Shown here: piece after piece, positions 1 to 6,265 of the stretch | How the letters are laid out: every line of letters begins with the position of its first letter | How positions within the stretch are numbered: the stretch's first letter is position 1 | Origin: Archangiaceae bacterium | GTDB lineage: Bacteria; Myxococcota; Myxococcia; Myxococcales; Myxococcaceae | Length of the DNA stretch: 47,338 nucleotides | Assembly (NCBI GenBank): GCA_043750125.1 | Contig: JAYVCD010000066.1 | Location: forward strand, 1 to 47,338 | Reading direction: 5' to 3' | Program-made: the position numbers and the translations under genes | Notes under the pieces: model-generated | What the model was told of the DNA's origin: nothing | Database searches by the model: none | The model's input: only the letters and a program-made list of their open reading frames with translations

Positions 1-663
1 CGTCACCGCAATGGCTGGAGCGGGGAGCGGTATTTGCGACGGTCCGCCATCAACCGAGGGGTCCAGGCAGCTCACCCCTCCGTCGGCCATCAACCCGCAG
101 CAGGACCAATCTCCGCAGGCGATGGCGACCGCGCCTTGCATTGCCCCCACGACACGCACGGGACCTGTGAAGACGGGTTTCTCGAAACAGACAACTTCGC
201 CGGTTTCAATCAATGCGCACGAACCCAGGCCACCGACCGCAATGGTCCGCGCCCGATCGATTTGTGCCTCGTGACGCTTTGAACACGAGCCCCCGCTCGC
301 CTCGCAGACCACGCGTCCCCCTTCCATCAGGGCGCAGGCGTAGGAAGGTTCGGAACACCACGGGGTCCACCCTCCGACCGAGATCGCGATCGCTCCCAAC
401 TCGACGACCGTAAATCGAATGGGGGTCCCGTCCGCTCCCGTGGCCTCGCACTCGACGCGGCCCGCCTGCGAGCGGGTGCAATGGACTCCGTCGCCCACGC
501 TCACCTCGATCACCCGATCTACCGGCGGCCCCGCGTCGAACTGGCCTGCGTCAAGGCGAGGCTCCTCCCACCCCGTGTCAGGGGACAAACCAGGTGCGAT
601 CTGAGTTCGACCGCAGGCACAGAGTAGAGCGACGACGAGCAGGAGGGGCAGTGAGGGGTTCAT
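1..663 (-). CDS. Cys-containing lipoprotein with RCC1/BLIP-II-like beta-propeller repeats (partial; runs off the left edge)
   Basis: Not in the ORF track; translated by hand from ATG at 663: MNPSLPLLLVVALLCACGR (lipobox). Repeats follow, such as VSVGDGVHCTRSQAGRVEC, YACALMEGGRVVC, IAVGGLGSCALIETGEVVC and IACGDWSCCGLMADGGVSC. The frame is open to position 1. Confidence 0.75.
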   Translation of the reverse strand, partial: MNPSLPLLLVVALLCACGRTQIAPGLSPDTGWEEPRLDAGQFDAGPPVDRVIEVSVGDGVHCTRSQAGRVECEATGADGTPIRFTVVELGAIAISVGGWTPWCSEPSYACALMEGGRVVCEASGGSCSKRHEAQIDRARTIAVGGLGSCALIETGEVVCFEKPVFTGPVRVVGAMQGAVAIACGDWSCCGLMADGGVSCLDPSVDGGPSQIPLPAPAIAVT

Positions 664-685
664 GGGCGCATAAGGTAGCTGCGGC

Positions 686-705
686 ACTCATGAATAAAAG
701 TGAGT
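686..705. promoter_or_regulatory. AT-rich inverted repeat in the divergent promoter; possible LysR operator
   Basis: ACTCA-N10-TGAGT (686-705) in the 91-bp gap between divergent genes; contains a T-N11-A spacing (691-703). Confidence 0.35.
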
Positions 706-754
706 AGTGTTCATCACATTCAGTCGTCTACGGACTCAATCTTCCGGAGCACCC

Positions 755-1702
755 ATGGAGCTCTCTCACCTTCGCTACTTCTTTCATGTCGCCACTGCCC
801 GAAGCTTTGTGCGCGGGGCTCGCGCCGCGTTCGTCACCCCACCCGCGTTGAGCAAGGCCGTTCGTGGGCTCGAAAAAGAGCTCGGCGTCGCATTGCTCGA
901 GCGCAGCACGCGACACGTGCGTCTCACCCGCGCGGGTGAAGTGGTGCTGGAGCGGTGTCGCCGCATTCTGGAAGAAGCTGAATCGCTGCGACGCGATGCG
1001 GCCACGGCGTCCCGCGAGATCAAGGGCGAGCTGCGCATCGCCGCGATGGAAGTCTTCTCAATCGATTTGTTGCCCATCGCCCTCACCCACCTGGTGAAGG
1101 CTCATCCGGGAGTCGTTCCGTTGGTGTACGAGATGGGCCCCGAAGACCTGCGGCTCGCGCTCAGCCGTGGCCTCCTCGATGTGGGGTTCAGCGTCGGAGG
1201 ACAGTCCACCGCCGACGTGTCGCGCGACGTGCTGGGTCTGAGTGTCGCCTGCATCGTCAGCGGGCCCGATCACCCGCTGCATCGCCACAAGCGGGTCACG
1301 CCCGCCACACTCGCCACCCAGAGTTGGGTCGTGCCGCGATTTTTTGGAAGGCCCCCCTTCCCTTCCCTGGACCAATTTCCCGACGAGAAGTATCCCCGCG
1401 CGATTGGAGCCACCATCGAGCTGCTCCAGGCGGGAATCAAACTGGCGGGGGGTGGCGCCTACCTGGGTTGCTTCCCCGAGATTTCGATTCGGCGAGAGTT
1501 GAATGACGGGAGTCTGCTGCGGATCAAGAGAGCCCCGCGGGTGCCGCCCTTCGAGCTGGCCGTCTTTACCCGACGCAACACCACGCCTTCCCCTGCGGTC
1601 GAAGCTCTGATCACGCTGATGCGCAAAGTTCTCGCCGAACGCCCCAAAAGTGTGCGCCCGCTCGCTTCAACGGCAACAGGGCCCGCACGACGACCTCGGT
1701 GA
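755..1702 (+). CDS. LysR-family transcriptional regulator
   Basis: N-terminal HTH MELSHLRYFFHVA...SFVRGA...VTPPALSKAVRGLEKELGVALLERSTRHVRLTRAG followed by a substrate-binding domain. Start taken at ATG 755. Confidence 0.95.
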   Translation: MELSHLRYFFHVATARSFVRGARAAFVTPPALSKAVRGLEKELGVALLERSTRHVRLTRAGEVVLERCRRILEEAESLRRDAATASREIKGELRIAAMEVFSIDLLPIALTHLVKAHPGVVPLVYEMGPEDLRLALSRGLLDVGFSVGGQSTADVSRDVLGLSVACIVSGPDHPLHRHKRVTPATLATQSWVVPRFFGRPPFPSLDQFPDEKYPRAIGATIELLQAGIKLAGGGAYLGCFPEISIRRELNDGSLLRIKRAPRVPPFELAVFTRRNTTPSPAVEALITLMRKVLAERPKSVRPLASTATGPARRPR

Positions 1703-1902
1703 GCGCGTCTAGAACCCGGGCGACCGACAGTCCGTTCGGCCGGCGGTACCGCGTCGGAAGCAAGGCGCGCTTCGCCGCATTCGCGCGCGCGTTCTTCCCC
1801 GCGTGGTTGTTCGACTTCGTCCTGCGCCGAGAGTTTCGGCTCGGCTGATATCCGCGCGGCGGGTGTAACCCCCGGGCCCCGGGGCTCGTAGGATGTCTTC
1901 AG

Positions 1903-3156
1903 ATGCGAGCCGCCCTCTTCCTTGCGCTCGTCGCGCTGTCACTTCCAGCTGCGGCGCAATGCACAACTTGAGTGAACCCTGCGCTCCCGTCGGGAGCGGG
2001 AGCAGACGGGGTCACGCTTCAAGGCCTGTCGCAGTCCTGGTCGGCGTCGGCTCAACTCGCCGTCGGGTGGATCCCCTTCCCAGGTCGGCTCGCCAACGGG
2101 CAGACCATCGAGGACCCTGCCCGGCCCCGGTTGGATTTGGGCCTGGCCACCGTCTCGGCCGGTTTCGGGCGCGGCCTGGGACCGGGTCTCGAGCTGCAGT
2201 TGCCGATGGGGATCATTGGCCGCAGCGACCTCGTCAATGGCGCGCAGCGTGACGTAGGTCTGGGCGATCTCGAGCTTCGCGGGCGCTTTACCGCGGCGCC
2301 CAACCCCATCCGGCTCACTGCCAGCGCCGGTCTCGCGTTGCCCACCGGGGCCTATGCCGCAAAGAGCGGCGCGCTCGCGCTCCAGGAAAACGCCCGCTAC
2401 CTGACGCTCGGCAGAGGAACGACCTGGTTCCTGGGCGACCTTGATGCGCGCGTCACGCTGCCCCAGCGGTTCGGCGCTTTCGCCTCGAGCACCGTGCGCC
2501 TGGCGCTGGCCGACGCCCATGACGGGTTTCGCTGGGGCCCCGAGGCGCGGGTGACGGCCGGAGCCACGCTCGGCCCGCTGGTCGAACGAATCTCGTTCTC
2601 ACTCGGCCTCGAAACCCAGTGGCGCGCTCAATCTTCCGAGATCGATCCGTTCACCAATGCGCGGGTGTCTTCCGCCAACACCGGTGGAACCTGGCTCACC
2701 CTCACCCCGGCCGGGCAAGTGCGGGTGATCGATGGGCTTGGAATCTTCGCGGCCCTTCGCGTCCCGCTGGCTCAGTGGGCCAGCGGGCTCCAGTTCATCC
2801 CCGGTCCGGGGGTGTTCGTGGGCATCGGAGGCAGTCTCGAGGTGATCCCTGCGACCCGCCCCGACACGGGCGCTTCCAGGGGCAAGGTGACCCTGGTGGA
2901 CTATTGGGCCACGTGGTGCGCTCCCTGTGTGAAACTCAAGCCGCTGATCGCTGCGGCCCGGCAGCGGCATCCCGAGCTCGAGGTAAAGGAAATCGATGCC
3001 AGCGCATGGACCGCAGAAGAGCTGGCGAAGGAAGTGCCCGGCGCCGCGGGGCTTCCGGTGCTCTTGATGTACGCGCCCGACGGCAGCCTCGCGGCTCAGT
3101 GGGTGGGCGAAGATGCGTTCGAGTTCGAAAACAAGTTGAAGGAGCTGCTTCCATGA
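1903..3156 (+). CDS. Putative selenoprotein: signal peptide + CxxU motif + outer-membrane beta-barrel (MetA-pathway/transporter-like) + C-terminal thioredoxin domain
   Basis: AGGA at 1890-1893, ATG 1903, MRAALFLALVALSLPAAA-QCTT-TGA(1969-1971)-VNPALP in frame with track ORF 1972..3156. Amphipathic strands (GLGDLELRGRF, LALPTGAY, RWGPEARVTAG) and C-terminal LVDYWATWCAPCVKLKP. SECIS-like hairpin at 1982-1998. Confidence 0.8.
1982..1998 (+). other. Putative bacterial SECIS element (gene 1)
   Basis: CGCTCCC-GTC-GGGAGCG: perfect 7-bp stem with a GU-containing loop, starting 10 nt after the in-frame UGA; loop G at +18. Confidence 0.7.
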
Positions 3157-3743
3157 CGACGAAACCCGGCTGGACTCACGCGCTGCTGGCTGCCTGTTCG
3201 ATGGCGATGTTTGCGTGCGGCGGGACGATGAAAGGGGCCGACGCGGGCGGGGGCGGCGGTGCCGGCGGTGGCTTCGCGCTGACCGACGGCGGGGACGTCG
3301 TCGCGATGTACCCCAGCTGGCAGCTGGCTGACATTCAGCCCCAAAGTCCGCGCTTCAACCAGGTCTACGGCCTGTCTGCGTTCCAGACCCGGCCAGTGGT
3401 CGTCGTGCTTCTGGAAGGGTTTTGAACCGTTTGTCGATCCCAGGCTGGGGTCGCCGAGTCGCTCTGGGCAGATCTGAAGGCCGAAGGCCGCAGCGTGCAG
3501 TTCGTCGTGCTGTCTGACGCGAACGCCAGCGACTTCGTGCCCGTGTTGACGATGCCGCTCTTCCGAGACCCAAGCCCCAACCGTGCCGCGTGGCTGGAGC
3601 TCGACGCCACCGCGTACAAACACGACACGTTTGTGTTTGATGCGCAGGGACGACGGGTGCTGACTCTCAAGTTGAACGGTTCGCTCAACCCGGCGACCTG
3701 GCGCAGTGACGTAGGGGCGGCGGTCCGCGCTCTTCCTCCTTGA
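3153..3743 (+). CDS. Putative selenoprotein lipoprotein with UxxC thioredoxin/peroxiredoxin-like fold (SelP N-domain-like)
   Basis: AAGGAG at 3139-3144 and ATGA overlap with the upstream stop. Lipoprotein-type signal MTTKPGWTHALLAACSMAMFAC. VVVVLLEGF-TGA(3423-3425)-TVCRSQ continues in frame into track ORF 3495..3743 (DTFVFDAQGR). 196 aa with readthrough. Confidence 0.85.
3435..3453 (+). other. Putative bacterial SECIS element (gene 2)
   Basis: CGATCCCA-GGC-TGGGGTCG: 8-bp stem with one U-G pair, starting 9 nt after the in-frame UGA; first loop G at +18. Confidence 0.7.
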
Positions 3744-3766
3744 ATCAGCCCGGCGTGCGGGTCGAC

Positions 3767-4525
3767 TCAGAAGGGCAAAAGAGTCGCCACCACGGCTCCG
3801 ATCGGAAGGACTTCAGCCCCCGCCGCCGCCGACGCCCGGAGCACACGCTCGAGATCGCGCGGGGTCACTCCAAATCCGGTCGGGCGATCGCTCACGTCGT
3901 GGGAATACAAGATGAGCCACCCTCCCCCCTGGGCGACCTGGTCGATCAAGCGCAGCGCCTGGTCGACGTGACCGCCTGACGAGTACAGCTTGTTGCCCTT
4001 GAGGAGGTTCAGATCCACCCGGTCGCGGTGCAGTCCGGGGAAGATCGACCGCATGCTCGCAAACCGTTCGCCGAGCCTGGCCTTCAACGACGGCCGCAGC
4101 CGCCCGTACGGATACGCGAAGTGTGACAACGGTCTTCCCGGTTGCAGCCCCGCGAAGCTCGCCTGATTTCGATCGAGATCCTCGTCGATCGTCTGCATAC
4201 GCGAGGTCATCAGGTCGAGGTGTGAATGGCTGTGACAGCCCAGCTCATGCCCGCCTGCACTCACTTTGAGCAGGTCCTCGCGGGTGAACGCGTCCTTCGC
4301 AGACGTCTGTTCTGTCATCAGCCCCATCGCCACGTAATAGGTGGCGTGCACCCCTTGAGCCTCGACCACCTCGGCTCCCAGTCGCGCCGCCGAACGGGGG
4401 AAGTCATCGAAGCTGAACGAAATGCAACGGCGGCCCGCAGCCAGTCGTGCCATTCGCGCACCCACATGCGGCGTCACCCATCGGGTGCCGTGGTACAGCG
4501 CGCTGTCGACGAGACGCTTGATCAC
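3767..4525 (-). CDS. Polysaccharide deacetylase (CE4/NodB domain)
   Basis: ISFSFDDFP, GHELGCHSHSH, FAYPYG and LILYSHDV motifs. Start taken at GTG 4525, just after the upstream stop. Confidence 0.88.
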   Translation of the reverse strand: MIKRLVDSALYHGTRWVTPHVGARMARLAAGRRCISFSFDDFPRSAARLGAEVVEAQGVHATYYVAMGLMTEQTSAKDAFTREDLLKVSAGGHELGCHSHSHLDLMTSRMQTIDEDLDRNQASFAGLQPGRPLSHFAYPYGRLRPSLKARLGERFASMRSIFPGLHRDRVDLNLLKGNKLYSSGGHVDQALRLIDQVAQGGGWLILYSHDVSDRPTGFGVTPRDLERVLRASAAAGAEVLPIGAVVATLLPF

Positions 4526-4536
4526 GGCTTTTGTCT

Positions 4537-5556
4537 CTATGGCTGTTCTGTCTTGTGCCGCTCTGGGTAGCGACGCACCCGGAACGGCGCCATCCACAAG
4601 ATCTTCCCCAGTCCGCCCGAAGCGATGCACAGGTACCGCCGCGCCGTCTCGGCGCTGAAGGGGCTGGTCGCAATCGCAACCATTCCACCCACCGACACCT
4701 GTGCCGCACCGACCAGCATCCAGAGCAGCGCTTCGATCTTGTTCGAATGTTCAGAAGATACGCACAGCGAAGTCCGTACCTGCCCCGCACTGAAGCGGCG
4801 CTTGAGCAGGTACCGCATCGTCAGGCGTTCTTCGCTGAAGTATTCCCGCACCCGCGCTTCCGGACACCAGTTGAGCTGGCGCCCCTCGGCAAGCAGCTTT
4901 CGAATCAGGGCTGAGTCTTCGCCGCCTGCGAGGCCCAGCGACAAATCGAAGGGCTCTGCCCCCGAGAAGCAGCTGCGGCGAAAGAGCGAATTTCCTGACC
5001 CCAGCGAAGCAATGCGCCGGGCCGGTACGGGGCCCGACGGCTCGGTGAAGAGCCGGGTCATTTCCTTTTCATGCAGCTGGGCGTTGTCCCGGGTCGGACC
5101 ATCGAAGTGGCCGAGCACCGCACCGAAGACCGCGTCAGACCCACTTTCCCTCTGGGCAGCAACGAGCGCGGCCAACCACTCAGGCTCGGCATCTTCATCG
5201 TCATCGAGGAACGCGATCAGCTGGCCGTGCGCGCTGGCCACCCCTCGATTGCGGGCCGCCGAAACTCCCGGAATCGGTTCACTTTCGTAGCGGAAGCGAA
5301 GCCGACCGTGGGCCGACACCTCTTTGACCGTGTCGCTCGCCGTCCGATCGGGACAGTTGTCGACCACCACCACTTCGAAGTCGTCGGGTGAAATTCCGAC
5401 CTGGGCCTGACAGCTCTCGAGCGCACGCCGAAGGGATTTCGGCCGACGAAAGGTGGGAATGATGACCGAAATTTTCGGCAACGCCACCAGCGCGCTCGTA
5501 CTTTCCTCGCGGGTCTTGTCGCCAGCGGCCTTTTCCACTCCCTGCTGGGAAGCCAT
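4537..5556 (-). CDS. GT2 glycosyltransferase, ExoM-like
   Basis: ISVIIPTFRRP, VVVVDNC, GVSAARNRG, IAFLDDDE, GGEDSAL. Start uncertain (5556 or 5571). Confidence 0.9.
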   Translation of the reverse strand: MASQQGVEKAAGDKTREESTSALVALPKISVIIPTFRRPKSLRRALESCQAQVGISPDDFEVVVVDNCPDRTASDTVKEVSAHGRLRFRYESEPIPGVSAARNRGVASAHGQLIAFLDDDEDAEPEWLAALVAAQRESGSDAVFGAVLGHFDGPTRDNAQLHEKEMTRLFTEPSGPVPARRIASLGSGNSLFRRSCFSGAEPFDLSLGLAGGEDSALIRKLLAEGRQLNWCPEARVREYFSEERLTMRYLLKRRFSAGQVRTSLCVSSEHSNKIEALLWMLVGAAQVSVGGMVAIATSPFSAETARRYLCIASGGLGKILWMAPFRVRRYPERHKTEQP

Positions 5557-5779
5557 CAGGGCCACCCGCAATCAGGCGAGGGCCCTTCGGGGAATGTCGA
5601 ATCGCGCCGAGACACGCGCCCAAACAGACCACGTTTTCGGTTGGAAGGCCGGCAGCAACCAGGGCCACCCGGCGGTGAGTAAAAATGTCCCACGCTCAAA
5701 GCCCAGCCGACCCCCGGTTGTTATAGCCGTTCGTGTTACCACTCTGAGCCGATTGGGCAGGAACCAAACGGGGGCGCAC

Positions 5780-6265
5780 ATGAAGAAGAAGCCGCAGGAA
5801 GATCCGCTGCACGCATTGTGGAGTGGTGATCCGCTCGCGATTCAGAAATTGCTGCACTCGAAGGTGAACCTCAATCAGACGGATGCCCAGGGGCGCACGT
5901 TGCTGATGGAAGCGGTCCTCGAGAAGCGAACTGATCTGGTCAAGCTGTTGCTCGAACACGGAGGCGATCCAAAGCTGTCCGATCGCGAAGGGGTCACTGC
6001 ACTCCACTTCGCAGCTCAAGCCCAGTTGCCTGAGATCGTTCAGCTGCTGCTCGACAAGGGAGCGCCCGTCGACGCCAAAGACCACCTCGGAAACACGCCC
6101 CTCTTCAAGGCGCTGTCGACCTTCCGTGGCGAGGCCGATGGAGATGCCATCTGGGCCCTGCTGCTGGCCGGCGCGGACAAGACTCTCAAGAACACCCACC
6201 AGATCTCATCCGAAGATCTCAGTCACCGGGTGTCGAACTATGATCTCGAGCGCTTCTTTCGCTGA
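5780..6265 (+). CDS. Ankyrin repeat protein
   Basis: DAQGRTLLMEAV, DREGVTALHFAA and DHLGNTPLFKAL ankyrin repeats; ATG 5780. Confidence 0.9.
   Translation: MKKKPQEDPLHALWSGDPLAIQKLLHSKVNLNQTDAQGRTLLMEAVLEKRTDLVKLLLEHGGDPKLSDREGVTALHFAAQAQLPEIVQLLLDKGAPVDAKDHLGNTPLFKALSTFRGEADGDAIWALLLAGADKTLKNTHQISSEDLSHRVSNYDLERFFR

What the first reader, a model, noticed from the sequence alone, without database searches (positions are those of the whole stretch)
1903..3156. Unusual architecture: N-terminal CxxU on a beta-barrel fused to a C-terminal thioredoxin
Seen: the motif sits two residues into the mature protein after the predicted AAA-Q signal cleavage, followed by amphipathic beta-strands and a canonical DYWATWCAPC thioredoxin. 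The track's 1972 start has no signal peptide, which supports the 1903 start. Inference: both barrel termini normally face the periplasm, so the thioredoxin could recycle the selenenyl-sulfide of the N-terminal CxxU. That segment may act as a plug or a soft-metal binding gate.
Basis: partly seen in the sequence, partly recalled or inferred. Interest (0 to 1): 0.8.

Follow-up and report, generated by a model that had tools for sequence, protein, structure and literature searches.

The report
Outer-membrane channel selenoprotein with thioredoxin
This gene encodes an exported outer-membrane channel protein that reads a TGA codon as selenocysteine near its mature start and carries a thioredoxin at its other end, a family absent from the selenoprotein lists checked here, which points to selenium-based redox chemistry at the bacterial outer membrane.

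Summary
ATG1903 opens a signal peptide, then Q-C-T-T-U (TGA 1969-1971), a roughly 270-residue beta-barrel, and a WCAPC thioredoxin.

- **Conservation:** of 57 distinct Myxococcota loci that include the N-terminus, 52 have TGA and 5 have TGC at this codon.
- **RNA signal:** the codons after TGA are frozen at synonymous sites into a CUCC...GGAG hairpin. The five Cys forms lack it.
- **Sec machinery:** the genome has SelB, SelD and tRNA-Sec. SelA was not found (genome 89% complete).
- **Fold:** the barrel models as a COG4313/FapF-type 12-strand channel (Z 26.9 to 4RL8), a fold whose N-terminus folds into the lumen.
- **Partner gene:** the overlapping downstream gene (3153-3743) is a second selenoprotein, a lipoprotein redoxin (FUTVCR), linked in 32 of 32 loci of this clade. 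A distant clade has a Cys-form redoxin lipoprotein upstream instead.

The likely function is a thiol/selenol relay from redoxin and/or Trx to the N-terminal Cys-x-x-Sec at the channel mouth. The substrate is unknown: a hydrophobic oxidant or a soft metal. The N-terminal tail modelled with low confidence, so its role as a plug is unproven. The family is in neither the 2026 list of 119 selenoprotein families nor NCBIfam 20.0.

The parts
1903..1956 (+). Signal peptide (residues 1-18, MRAALFLALVALSLPAAA). Predicted signal peptidase I cleavage after AAA.
   Evidence: Translation. Sequence-diverged but signal-like peptides ending small-x-small|Q in all 57 loci that include the N-terminus. An AGGA lies 10-13 nt upstream of the ATG. 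SignalP was not run.
1957..1971 (+). Mature N-terminus Q-C-T-T-U. Cys codon 1960-1962; TGA 1969-1971 read as selenocysteine.
   Evidence: TGA in 52 and TGC in 5 of 57 distinct loci. Q1, C2, U/C5, P8 and G13 are invariant in 48 aligned mature proteins. Cys-form relatives begin QCxxC.
1976..2012 (+). SECIS-like hairpin region. The conserved core is CUCC (1984-1987) paired with GGAG (1993-1996), with loop CGUCG (1988-1992). 12 nt separate the UGA from the first core pair and 16 nt separate it from the loop.
   Evidence: Single-sequence fold -34 kcal/mol, z -3.13, 0 of 200 shuffles as good. Core 4 bp paired in 48 of 48 distinct sequences. Synonymous sites are frozen: CTC 52/52, CCG 52/52, GGA 49/52 against 8.2% GGA elsewhere in the same genes. 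The hairpin is absent from the 5 TGC forms.
2038..2847 (+). 12-strand COG4313/FapF-type outer-membrane beta-barrel (precursor residues 46-315).
   Evidence: AlphaFold models: pLDDT 81.3 and 89.4, pTM 0.81. Foldseek: FapF E 5.5e-12, 4rl8_C E 7.4e-10. VIA: 4rl8_C Z 26.9, FapF Z 24.9, autotransporters about 19.
2887..3147 (+). C-terminal thioredoxin domain. Active site WCAPC, with Cys codons at 2917-2919 and 2926-2928.
   Evidence: PF00085 36.2 bits (cut-off 23.5), E 6.3e-9. Profile hits to solved thioredoxins up to E 7.7e-15. Both Cys and the Pro before the fold's third strand are invariant.
3154..3156 (+). True stop codon (TGA) of the barrel-Trx gene. It overlaps the ATG of the next gene (ATGA).
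   Evidence: The same 4-nt overlap occurs in 15 of the 28 other loci scanned, where the simple first-start rule gave a believable lipoprotein start.
3153..3743 (+). Partner gene: a lipoprotein thioredoxin-fold redoxin of 196 aa, itself a selenoprotein (LLEGF-U-TV-C-RSQ). TGA 3423-3425, Cys 3432-3434. A Gly-rich linker follows the lipobox.
   Evidence: Translation. AhpC-TSA E 2.4e-4 and Redoxin E 9.7e-4, both below cut-off. NF053656 redoxin_TUGYCR 33.1 bits against a cut-off of 100. Found next to the barrel gene with U in 32 of 32 distinct loci of the QCTTU clade.
3436..3452 (+). SECIS-like hairpin of the partner gene: GAUCCCA-GGC-UGGGGUC.
   Evidence: 27 sequences, 189 of 189 cells paired, 2 pairs with changes on both sides (G-C to A-U; U-A to G-U), 0 of 500 shuffles reach the covariation score. 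The single-sequence fold of 3414-3484 was not better than shuffles (z -0.19).
707..1702 (+). LysR-type regulator upstream on the same strand. A neighbour only, not part of the conserved module.
   Evidence: PF00126 and PF03466. Outside the window it was found only as two weak matches among the 61 locus records.

Best explanation
**What it is.** Window 1903-3156 encodes one exported selenoprotein of 417 residues. After signal-peptide removal the mature protein starts Q-C-T-T-Sec. About 25 flexible residues lead into a 12-strand COG4313/FapF-type outer-membrane barrel. A short linker then holds a thioredoxin (WCAPC) at the periplasmic mouth. UGA 1969-1971 is recoded by SelB and tRNA-Sec with the help of a small hairpin 12 nt downstream.

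**How it most likely works (inferred).** It forms a conserved two-gene module with the overlapping downstream gene, a lipoprotein UxxC selenoredoxin on a long Gly-rich tether. Reducing equivalents would pass from the tethered redoxin and/or the fused Trx to the N-terminal Cys-x-x-Sec pair. By analogy with the lumen-inserted N-terminus of COG4313 channels, that pair would sit in or at the periplasmic mouth of the channel. There the selenol would react with whatever the channel admits, form a Cys-Sec selenenylsulfide, and be re-reduced.

**Shown versus inferred.** The gene structure, the Sec codon, the hairpin, the fold, the Trx domain and the gene linkage are shown. The position of the N-terminal tail, the direction of electron flow and the substrate are inferred. 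My rough split for the substrate is:
- hydrophobic peroxide or electrophile, about 0.3;
- soft metal or chalcogen, about 0.25;
- redox gating of the channel itself, about 0.2.
For: **Selenoprotein status**
- TGA is conserved in 52 of 57 loci and TGC sits at the same codon in the other 5.
- 20 of the 146 best family representatives are full-length QCxxC forms.
- Hairpin-forming codons are frozen (CTC 52/52, CCG 52/52, GGA 49/52 against 8.2% background), whereas the Pro codon outside the hairpin uses all four codons. The hairpin is lost in the Cys forms.
- SelB scores 281 bits (cut-off 242). tRNA-Sec scores 65 bits (gathering 47). SelD scores 339 bits and has its own in-frame TGA.

**Fold**
- Models have pLDDT 89.4 and pTM 0.81.
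- 4rl8_C aligns at Z 26.9, rmsd 2.2 A over 256 of 268 residues, with model range 7-294 on chain range 1-268.
- In the COG4313 structure the N-terminal ~14 residues occupy the lumen on the periplasmic side (PMC4493636).

**Redox sites**
- C2, U5 and both Trx cysteines are invariant in 48 sequences.

**Coupling to a redoxin**
- The UxxC lipoprotein lies downstream in 32 of 32 loci of this clade, mostly with an ATGA overlap.
- In a distant clade a WCxxC redoxin lipoprotein lies immediately upstream in 17 of 17 loci that have that neighbour. The pairing therefore survives a change in gene order.

**Importance of the N-terminus across the wider family**
- Barrel-only relatives begin QCxxC or HH right after the signal peptide.
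Against: - The N-terminal tail is not confidently placed.
- No coordinates were available, so no Sec-to-Trx distance was measured.
- Of the 20 full-length QCxxC representatives, 9 showed no Trx motif in my regex scan (some may be cut contigs). The fused Trx is therefore not obligatory for the N-terminal motif.
- The hairpin core never varies, so it gives no covariation. Only the lower pair 18-32 shows 4 double changes, and 13 of 48 sequences are unpaired there.
- SelA was not found in the 89.4%-complete genome.
- The window protein itself does not match PF13557 at E <= 1.
- No reductant such as DsbD or CcdA is encoded in the module.
- The complex prediction that might have tested redoxin docking could not be run (see Tried and rejected).
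- No expression or selenium-incorporation data exist.
Confidence: 0.55

Rival explanations
1. A metal gate rather than a catalyst. The N-terminal Cys-x-x-Sec is a soft-metal or chalcogen ligand (Cu(I), Hg, Ag, Se or S species) that captures or gates the ion at the channel. The Trx and the redoxin only keep it reduced and able to bind metal, as TlpA-type reductases do for copper sites (that comparison is recalled, not tested).
For: - 37 of the 146 best representatives, almost all barrel-only, begin with His-His directly after the signal peptide. That is a metal-type ligand in the same place as QCxxC/U.
- One relative (P0126) has a His/Asp-rich linker (repeats of the type DKHDHGGE) between barrel and Trx.
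- An outer-membrane TonB receptor selenoprotein with a CxxU motif is listed among known families (PMC13188914 Table 1).
Against: - No metal-resistance or metal-transport gene is linked in the window or in the conserved neighbours.
- The solved relatives of the barrel are implicated in hydrophobic-molecule uptake or polypeptide export, not ion transport (passages; titles).
- The His-His relatives sit next to di-haem peroxidase/MauG-type genes, which fits peroxide chemistry as well as copper chemistry.
Confidence: 0.2
2. An export or surface-display device. The FapF-like barrel is a translocon for a polypeptide, for instance the tethered partner lipoprotein with its long Gly-rich or Cys-rich region. 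The Trx and Cys-Sec sites would keep the passenger reduced during passage or isomerise its disulfides.
For: - FapF, a polypeptide secretion pore, is nearly as close a structural match as COG4313 (Z 24.9 against 26.9), and autotransporter barrels follow.
- In the distant clade the partner carries 30-47 cysteines ahead of its redoxin domain in 15 of the 16 loci where that ORF is not cut by the contig end.
- In the window's clade the partner has a long Gly-rich linker.
- An earlier finding of this scan (e1-945115, not tested here) describes another Myxococcota selenoprotein lipoprotein paired with an outer-membrane barrel.
Against: - FapF has a periplasmic coiled coil and other fap genes; no counterpart was seen here.
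- The NCBIfam FapF model does not match. There was no hit for the window protein and E 0.091 for one relative.
- Nothing shows that the lipoprotein leaves the periplasm.
Confidence: 0.1
3. Not a selenoprotein. TGA 1969 is a real stop ending a 22-codon upstream ORF, and the protein starts at GTG 1972, as gene callers annotate it.
For: - Table-11 ORF calling gives 1972..3156.
- All database entries are annotated that way, many starting M/V-NPALP.
- SelA was not found.
Against: - A barrel protein starting at 1972 would have no signal peptide.
- The stop is TGA in 52 of 52 loci and never TAA or TAG. The reading frame and zero spacing are always kept.
- The next codon is a start codon (GTG) in only 24 of 52 loci.
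- Five loci and many representatives carry Cys there in one continuous ORF.
- Synonymous-site freezing makes a hairpin only in the TGA forms.
- SelB, SelD and tRNA-Sec are present.
Confidence: 0.03

Closest known systems
COG4313 / Pfam PF13557 (Phenol_MetA_deg) outer-membrane channels, e.g. Pput2725 of Pseudomonas putida (PDB 4RL8)
   Same: 12-strand barrel. Best structural match: Z 26.9, rmsd 2.2 A, 256 of 268 residues. Weak sequence kinship: PF13557 matches 2 of 27 family members, and 4 of 10 remoter relatives score over the cut-off. An N-terminal segment precedes strand 1 on the periplasmic side, and in Pput2725 that segment fills the lumen.
   Different: COG4313 channels as described have no fused thioredoxin, no Cys/Sec motif at the N-terminus and no linked redoxin. 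The window protein itself does not reach the Pfam model. The substrates proposed for COG4313 are hydrophobic molecules; the substrate here is unknown.
FapF, the Pseudomonas functional-amyloid secretion pore (PDB 5O65, 5O67)
   Same: 12-strand barrel with an occluding N-terminal element. Top Foldseek hit at E 5.5e-12; VIA Z 24.9.
   Different: 12-14% identity. There is no fap operon context. The NCBIfam FapF model does not match. FapF has no redox motifs.
Outer-membrane selenoproteins already listed: the TonB-dependent receptor of FCYXU-motif type (NF049945, CxxU) and the GSU2204/MtrB-PioB-type barrel (NF041027)
   Same: Predicted selenocysteine in an outer-membrane beta-barrel protein; the TonB receptor also has a CxxU motif (PMC13188914 Table 1; PMC12013277 passages).
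   Different: Different barrel families (22-strand TonB receptors, MtrB/PioB porins). None has Sec at the mature N-terminus or a fused Trx. Neither model matched the window protein in NCBIfam 20.0.
Periplasmic reducing pathways with TlpA/ResA/DsbE-type membrane-tethered thioredoxins and the modular relay of DsbD (recalled knowledge)
   Same: Several CxxC-type modules in series in the cell envelope. The partner redoxin and the Trx domain give weak hits to TlpA, ResA, DsbE and DsbD models.
   Different: All those hits are far below the family cut-offs. Two of the three sites here use Sec. The end acceptor sits on an outer-membrane channel. No membrane electron importer is encoded in the module.
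TUGYCR-motif thioredoxin-fold (seleno)protein, NCBIfam NF053656, and the listed UxxC 'Prx-like thiol:disulfide oxidoreductase' / 'Redoxin family' selenoproteins. These compare with the partner gene.
   Same: Thioredoxin fold with U-x-x-C-R at the active site (FUTVCR against TUGYCR). 33.1 bits to NF053656.
   Different: The score is a third of the cut-off (100 bits), so it is not a member. The partner is a lipoprotein with a Gly-rich tether and is fixed next to the barrel gene.

Membership tests
Bacterial selenoprotein gene (SelB-dependent UGA recoding) | In-frame UGA conserved in orthologues, with coding conservation on both sides | tested here: met
   52 of 57 distinct loci have TGA at the aligned codon. 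The signal peptide upstream and NPxLP downstream are conserved in frame.
Bacterial selenoprotein gene (SelB-dependent UGA recoding) | Homologues with Cys aligned to the UGA | tested here: met
   5 loci have TGC. P0031 begins AQACATC. 20 of the 146 best representatives begin QCxxC.
Bacterial selenoprotein gene (SelB-dependent UGA recoding) | Stem-loop (bacterial SECIS) shortly downstream of the UGA | tested here: met
   The conserved CUCC/GGAG core is paired in 48 of 48 distinct sequences, with a G-containing 5-nt loop. Synonymous-site freezing is seen, and the hairpin is lost in the Cys forms. Fold z -3.13. SelB binding itself is not testable here, and no Rfam family covers it.
Bacterial selenoprotein gene (SelB-dependent UGA recoding) | Sec machinery in the same genome (SelA, SelB, SelD, tRNA-Sec) | tested here: inconclusive
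   SelB 281 bits, over the cut-off. tRNA-Sec 65 bits, over gathering. SelD 339 bits. SelA was not found in a genome that is 89.4% complete and in 460 contigs.
Bacterial selenoprotein gene (SelB-dependent UGA recoding) | Selenium actually incorporated into the protein | not testable with these tools
   Needs 75Se labelling or mass spectrometry.
COG4313 / Pfam PF13557 Phenol_MetA_deg outer-membrane channel | Match to the family HMM over the gathering score | tested here: not met
   The window protein has no PF13557 hit at E <= 1. 2 of 27 close family members match (best E 3.9e-5). Of 10 remoter relatives scanned, 4 score over 22 bits: P0123 37.1, P0197 29.8, P0196 22.8, P0081 22.6.
COG4313 / Pfam PF13557 Phenol_MetA_deg outer-membrane channel | Monomeric 12-strand barrel fold | tested here: met
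   Predicted model only: Z 26.9, rmsd 2.2 A over 256 residues to 4rl8_C, well above the next unrelated barrels at about 19.
COG4313 / Pfam PF13557 Phenol_MetA_deg outer-membrane channel | N-terminal segment folded into the barrel lumen | tested here: inconclusive
   The alignment to 4rl8_C starts at model residue 7 against chain residue 1. However, residues 6-9 and 11-19 have pLDDT under 50.
Thioredoxin (Pfam PF00085) | HMM match over the cut-off and a WCxxC active site | tested here: met
   36.2 bits against 23.5. WCAPC is present, and both Cys are invariant in 48 sequences.
FapF amyloid transporter (NCBIfam NF058560) | HMM match over the cut-off; fap operon context | tested here: not met
   No hit for the window protein. 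One relative scores E 0.091, 11.5 bits against a cut-off of 700. The neighbours are a LysR regulator, the redoxin and polysaccharide genes.
NF053656 TUGYCR-motif thioredoxin-fold (seleno)protein (partner gene) | HMM match over the cut-off | tested here: not met
   33.1 bits against a cut-off of 100. The motif is FUTVCR.

The most novel reading that the evidence does not exclude
The two selenoproteins form a haem-free electron conduit across the periplasm based on selenium and sulfur chemistry. A tethered selenoredoxin would carry electrons from the inner membrane to a thioredoxin docked under an outer-membrane channel. That thioredoxin would charge a Cys-Sec pair inside the channel lumen. The cell could then reduce hydrophobic or extracellular substrates at the outer membrane itself, for example lipid hydroperoxides, prey-derived oxidants, or elemental sulfur or selenium. 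This would amount to a GPx-like enzyme built into an outer-membrane pore. It would also be a candidate for the thiol-bearing outer-membrane protein that has been postulated for mobilising insoluble chalcogens (that postulate is recalled, not from a call).
Probability: 0.15. Interest if true: 0.9.

Novelty: new variant of a known kind. Interest (0 to 1): 0.72.

Why it matters
Selenoproteins with CxxU or UxxC motifs are well known, and two outer-membrane barrel selenoproteins have been predicted before. This family is different in three ways:
- it puts selenocysteine five residues from the mature N-terminus of a COG4313-type channel;
- it fuses a thioredoxin to the other end;
- it is hard-wired to a second selenoprotein.

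**Not yet described, as far as I could check.** It is absent from the May 2026 inventory of 119 prokaryotic selenoprotein families (PMC13188914, Table 1 read in two parts). It is absent from the 2022 list (PMC9312934) and from NCBIfam 20.0. Every database entry I saw is truncated and named only as a thioredoxin.

**Practical consequences**
- Dozens of Myxococcota gene models need correcting.
- Selenium-dependent redox chemistry is placed at the outer membrane of mostly aerobic predators.
- COG4313 channels, whose transport mechanism is still unsettled (PMC4493636), gain a natural variant whose N-terminal "plug" carries a chemically addressable Sec.
- The His-His and QCxxC N-termini of the sister groups suggest that the N-terminus is the business end of this whole barrel branch.

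Tried and rejected
- **Complex prediction.** There is no verdict and I did not try any variant. Docking of the partner therefore remains untested.
- **Rfam scan of window 1-6000 at E <= 1.** Two chance hits only (a microRNA and a snoRNA family) and nothing at either hairpin.
- **Single-sequence folding of the partner's post-UGA region.** It was no better than shuffles (z -0.19; 84 of 200 as good). The comparative count was needed to show that hairpin.
- **Profile search of PDB sequences.** Among the 60 best of 344 matches, only thioredoxins appeared and no barrel. The barrel kinship is visible only by fold and by weak Pfam hits.
- **NCBIfam on the window protein.** Only Trx-domain hits, all under their cut-offs.
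- **LysR as part of the module.** Rejected. Apart from the window's own locus, the six-frame search of the 61 locus records gave only two weak matches.
- **Does the gene track SelB among relatives?** Not informative. SelB is over the cut-off in 30 of 41 genomes, while full-length orthologues were found in only 3 (G000, G005, G014), plus a contig-end fragment in G003.
- **Lipoprotein reading of the barrel protein.** Rejected. The residue before the Cys is an invariant Gln, which does not make a lipobox.
- **Literature.** Haft and Tolstoy 2025 (mSystems, PMC12013261) could not be read because it is not held. I saw its families only as listed in PMC13188914. Deng et al. 2026 (Cell Rep) was not seen either. 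Supplements are closed. Candidate lists in these sources could already contain this family.
- **Earlier findings of this scan.** Nothing for this genome or this sequence.
Full report
**1. What is in the sequence.**
On the + strand an ATG at 1903, with AGGA 10-13 nt upstream, opens MRAALFLALVALSLPAAAQ-C-T-T-(TGA)-VNPALPSGAG.... The TGA is at 1969-1971 and the frame then runs open to the TGA at 3154-3156. Standard ORF calling sees only 1972..3156, starting at a GTG (394 aa). That product would begin MNPALPSG and has no signal peptide. Pfam finds one domain, a C-terminal thioredoxin (36.2 bits, cut-off 23.5, residues 328-403, WCAPC). It finds nothing for the first 320 residues. NCBIfam gives only Trx-domain hits below their cut-offs.

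**2. The TGA is a selenocysteine codon.**
- *Relatives of the genome.* A six-frame search of 41 genomes (40 relatives plus the window's own) found full-length orthologues in two other genera, G014 and G005. Each has one in-frame TGA and the same QCTTU-VNPALP after a different signal peptide. A contig-end fragment was found in G003.
- *Species-representative genomes.* A scan returned 77 loci. In all, 61 locus records were examined: 54 TGA, 5 TGC and 2 cut at a contig end. Two of the TGA records duplicate other loci, leaving 59 distinct loci. Of the 57 that reach the N-terminus, 52 have TGA and 5 have TGC at the aligned codon. The motif is always (A/G)-Q-C-x-x-U/C-x-(N/S)-P.
- *Not a stop plus restart.* No TAA or TAG ever occurs at this site. 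The next codon is GTG in only 24 of 52 loci.
- *Database entries.* 56 homologues were found, all named thioredoxin-like and mostly truncated to M/V-NPALP. The exception is a Cys form (P0031) that begins signal...AQACATCSPLSLP.
- *RNA signal.* After the TGA, codon 5 is CTC in 52 of 52 loci (33% of Leu codons elsewhere in these genes). Codon 6 is CCG in 52 of 52 (52% elsewhere). Codon 8 is GGA in 49 of 52 (8.2% elsewhere). The Pro codon at position 3 uses all four codons.
- *The hairpin.* These frozen bases form CUCC...GGAG around a 5-nt G-rich loop, and they pair in 48 of 48 distinct sequences. In the window the region folds at -34 kcal/mol with z -3.13. The five Cys forms encode F-A or F-V instead of L-P and have no such hairpin.
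- *A weakness.* The core never varies, so real covariation is limited to one lower pair.
- *Sec machinery.* The genome has SelB, tRNA-Sec and a SelD with its own TGA. SelA was not found in this 89.4%-complete assembly. Rfam has no matching family.

**3. The fold.**
- *First model.* Built on truncated homologues, it gave a barrel plus Trx with pLDDT 81.3.
- *Second model.* Built on 48 mature full-length sequences with Sec read as Cys, it gave pLDDT 89.4 and pTM 0.81.
- *Fold searches.* Foldseek ranks FapF and the COG4313 channel 4RL8 first. VIA-align gives 4rl8_C Z 26.9 (rmsd 2.2 A, 256 of 268 residues) and FapF Z 24.9. Autotransporter barrels follow at about 19.
- *Sequence kinship.* It is faint but real. 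PF13557 matches 2 of 27 close members. It exceeds its cut-off in 4 of 10 remoter relatives scanned. The window protein itself does not reach the model.
- *Precedent for a plug.* The Pput2725 paper reports that the N-terminal ~14 residues fold into the lumen from the periplasmic side (PMC4493636, passages).
- *The tail here.* Mature residues 6-9 and 11-19 stay under pLDDT 50. The plug position is therefore a homology-based expectation, not a prediction with confidence. I had no access to coordinates.

**4. The module.**
- *Partner gene.* The stop of the barrel gene overlaps the ATG of the next gene (ATGA at 3153-3156). That gene (3153-3743) encodes a lipoprotein with a Gly-rich linker and a thioredoxin-fold domain. 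Its active site is LLEGF-U-TV-C-RSQ, with an in-frame TGA at 3423-3425.
- *Family matches of the partner.* It scores weakly against AhpC-TSA and Redoxin. It scores 33 bits against the TUGYCR selenoredoxin model, whose cut-off is 100.
- *Linkage.* The partner lies next to the barrel gene, always with U, in 32 of 32 distinct loci of the QCTTU clade. In 15 of the 28 other loci scanned, where a simple start rule worked, the same 4-nt overlap is present.
- *Partner hairpin.* GGUCCCA-GGC-UGGGACC is paired in 189 of 189 cells of 27 sequences, with two compensatory pairs. The single-sequence fold was not significant.
- *Distant clade.* In the QC(A/S)xU-xNPxLPVGD clade this downstream gene is missing. 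Instead, 17 loci have immediately upstream a lipoprotein with a Cys-rich region (30-47 Cys in 15 of the 16 ORFs not cut by the contig end) and a C-terminal WCxxC redoxin domain. Pfam detected the domain in 4 of 4 scanned, and the motif is present in 17 of 17. For the other loci of that clade the neighbour was not resolved.
- *Conclusion on linkage.* Barrel-Trx and a tethered redoxin thus stay linked in two different gene orders. The upstream LysR regulator of the window is not conserved.

**5. The wider barrel branch.**
A profile of the barrel part found 960 representatives at E <= 0.001 and 273 at E <= 1e-10. Among the 146 best that I could read:
- 20 begin QCxxC after a signal peptide (11 with a Trx motif, 9 without);
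- 12 begin M-(N/S)PxLP, which are probably further truncated Sec forms;
- 37 begin His-His right after the signal peptide, almost all barrel-only proteins of about 335 aa;
- 77 are other or truncated starts.

In five Myxococcota loci of the His-His group, four have a di-haem cytochrome c peroxidase/MauG-family lipoprotein just upstream (three were scanned by Pfam, E 1e-44 to 1e-48). A histidine kinase lies downstream (two scanned). One Trx-bearing relative has a His/Asp-rich linker. A reactive or ligand-type mature N-terminus therefore looks like the hallmark of this branch.

**6. Mechanism.**
- *Shown.* An exported protein with four invariant redox residues (C2, U5, C321, C324). A barrel of the type whose N-terminus enters the lumen. 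A Trx held close to the periplasmic rim by a short linker in a confident two-domain model (pTM 0.81). An obligate genomic partner that is a tethered redoxin.
- *Inferred.* Electrons flow from the redoxin and/or the Trx to the Cys-Sec pair. That pair reacts with a species in the channel and cycles through a selenenylsulfide.
- *Substrate.* The evidence does not settle it. The hydrophobic-channel kinship, the peroxiredoxin-like partner and the peroxidase neighbours of the sister group favour a hydrophobic oxidant. The His-His and His-rich variants keep a soft-metal reading alive. A redox-gated pore and a FapF-like export role are further rivals.

**7. Comparison and novelty.**
- *Lists checked.* The 2022 table of prokaryotic selenoproteins (PMC9312934) and the 2026 inventory of 119 families (PMC13188914, Table 1) hold no barrel-plus-Trx family with an N-terminal CxxU.
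- *Nearest listed families.* A TonB receptor with a CxxU motif and a GSU2204/MtrB-PioB-type barrel are listed. The first comes from deep-Sep (PMC12013277, passages).
- *Other literature.* The two-term search 'selenocysteine' + 'Myxococcota' returned four papers, none on this subject judging by their titles and abstract starts. In the four-term search that included 'COG4313' and 'TUGYCR' with 'selenoprotein', none of the 15 papers listed held either of those two terms.
- *Not seen.* I could not read Haft and Tolstoy 2025, Deng et al. 2026 or any supplements, so prior mention there cannot be excluded.
- *Classification.* I class it as a new variant of a known kind. It is a new selenoprotein family and domain architecture within the known world of CxxU/UxxC redox selenoproteins.

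**8. Verdict.**
Confidence in the mechanism as stated is 0.55. Interest is 0.72.

Noticed in passing
window 3153-3743 (+): A second selenoprotein directly downstream: a lipoprotein redoxin with FUTVCR (TGA 3423-3425) and its own covarying hairpin (3436-3452). Gene callers would split it at the TGA.
   Followed up: yes
L116-L119 (G141:C551, G084:C289, G133:C21, G044:C4): A barrel-only sister group whose mature N-terminus is His-His (HHxxxxxR[VIL]G). It sits between a di-haem cytochrome c peroxidase/MauG-family lipoprotein and a histidine kinase. This suggests a related but selenium-free envelope system.
   Followed up: partly
L067-L092, upstream of the barrel gene (e.g. L088:1477-2916, L075:1321-2928): In the distant clade the partner is a lipoprotein with a Cys-rich N-terminal region (30-47 cysteines in 15 of the 16 ORFs not cut by the contig end; weak Dickkopf_N-like hits) and a C-terminal WCxxC redoxin domain.
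   Followed up: partly
P0126 (protein): A Trx-bearing relative that starts MNPNLPVGG (probably truncated after a Sec). It has a His/Asp-rich repeat linker (DKHDHGGE type) between barrel and Trx, which looks like a metal-binding stretch.
   Followed up: no
G000:C240:7300-7743 (L115): A degraded second copy in the same assembly. It is 88.7% identical in protein over query residues 206-320 (tblastn; 87% over 208-325). It lacks the N-terminus and the Trx domain and is missing roughly residues 119-207, at a contig end. It is either a pseudogene fragment or an assembly piece of a strain variant.
   Followed up: partly
G000:C278:3012-3932 (L112): The genome's selD gene itself contains one in-frame TGA, as in Sec-containing SelD.
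   Followed up: no
L074, L076, L077, L078, L085, L090: These MAG records are titled 'uncultured Enterobacteriaceae' or 'Klebsiella pneumoniae', yet they carry this high-GC family, which is otherwise seen almost only in Myxococcota-labelled records. The labels look wrong.
   Followed up: no
L076/L078, L073/L080, L071/L082: Some MAGs hold two paralogues of the barrel-Trx selenoprotein on different contigs: one of QCSTU-GNPALPVGD type and one of QCATU-TSPALPVGD type.
   Followed up: no
window 1-687 (-), 3767-5571 (-): The flanking genes are an RCC1-repeat lipoprotein, a polysaccharide deacetylase and a family-2 glycosyltransferase. None is conserved next to the module.
   Followed up: partly
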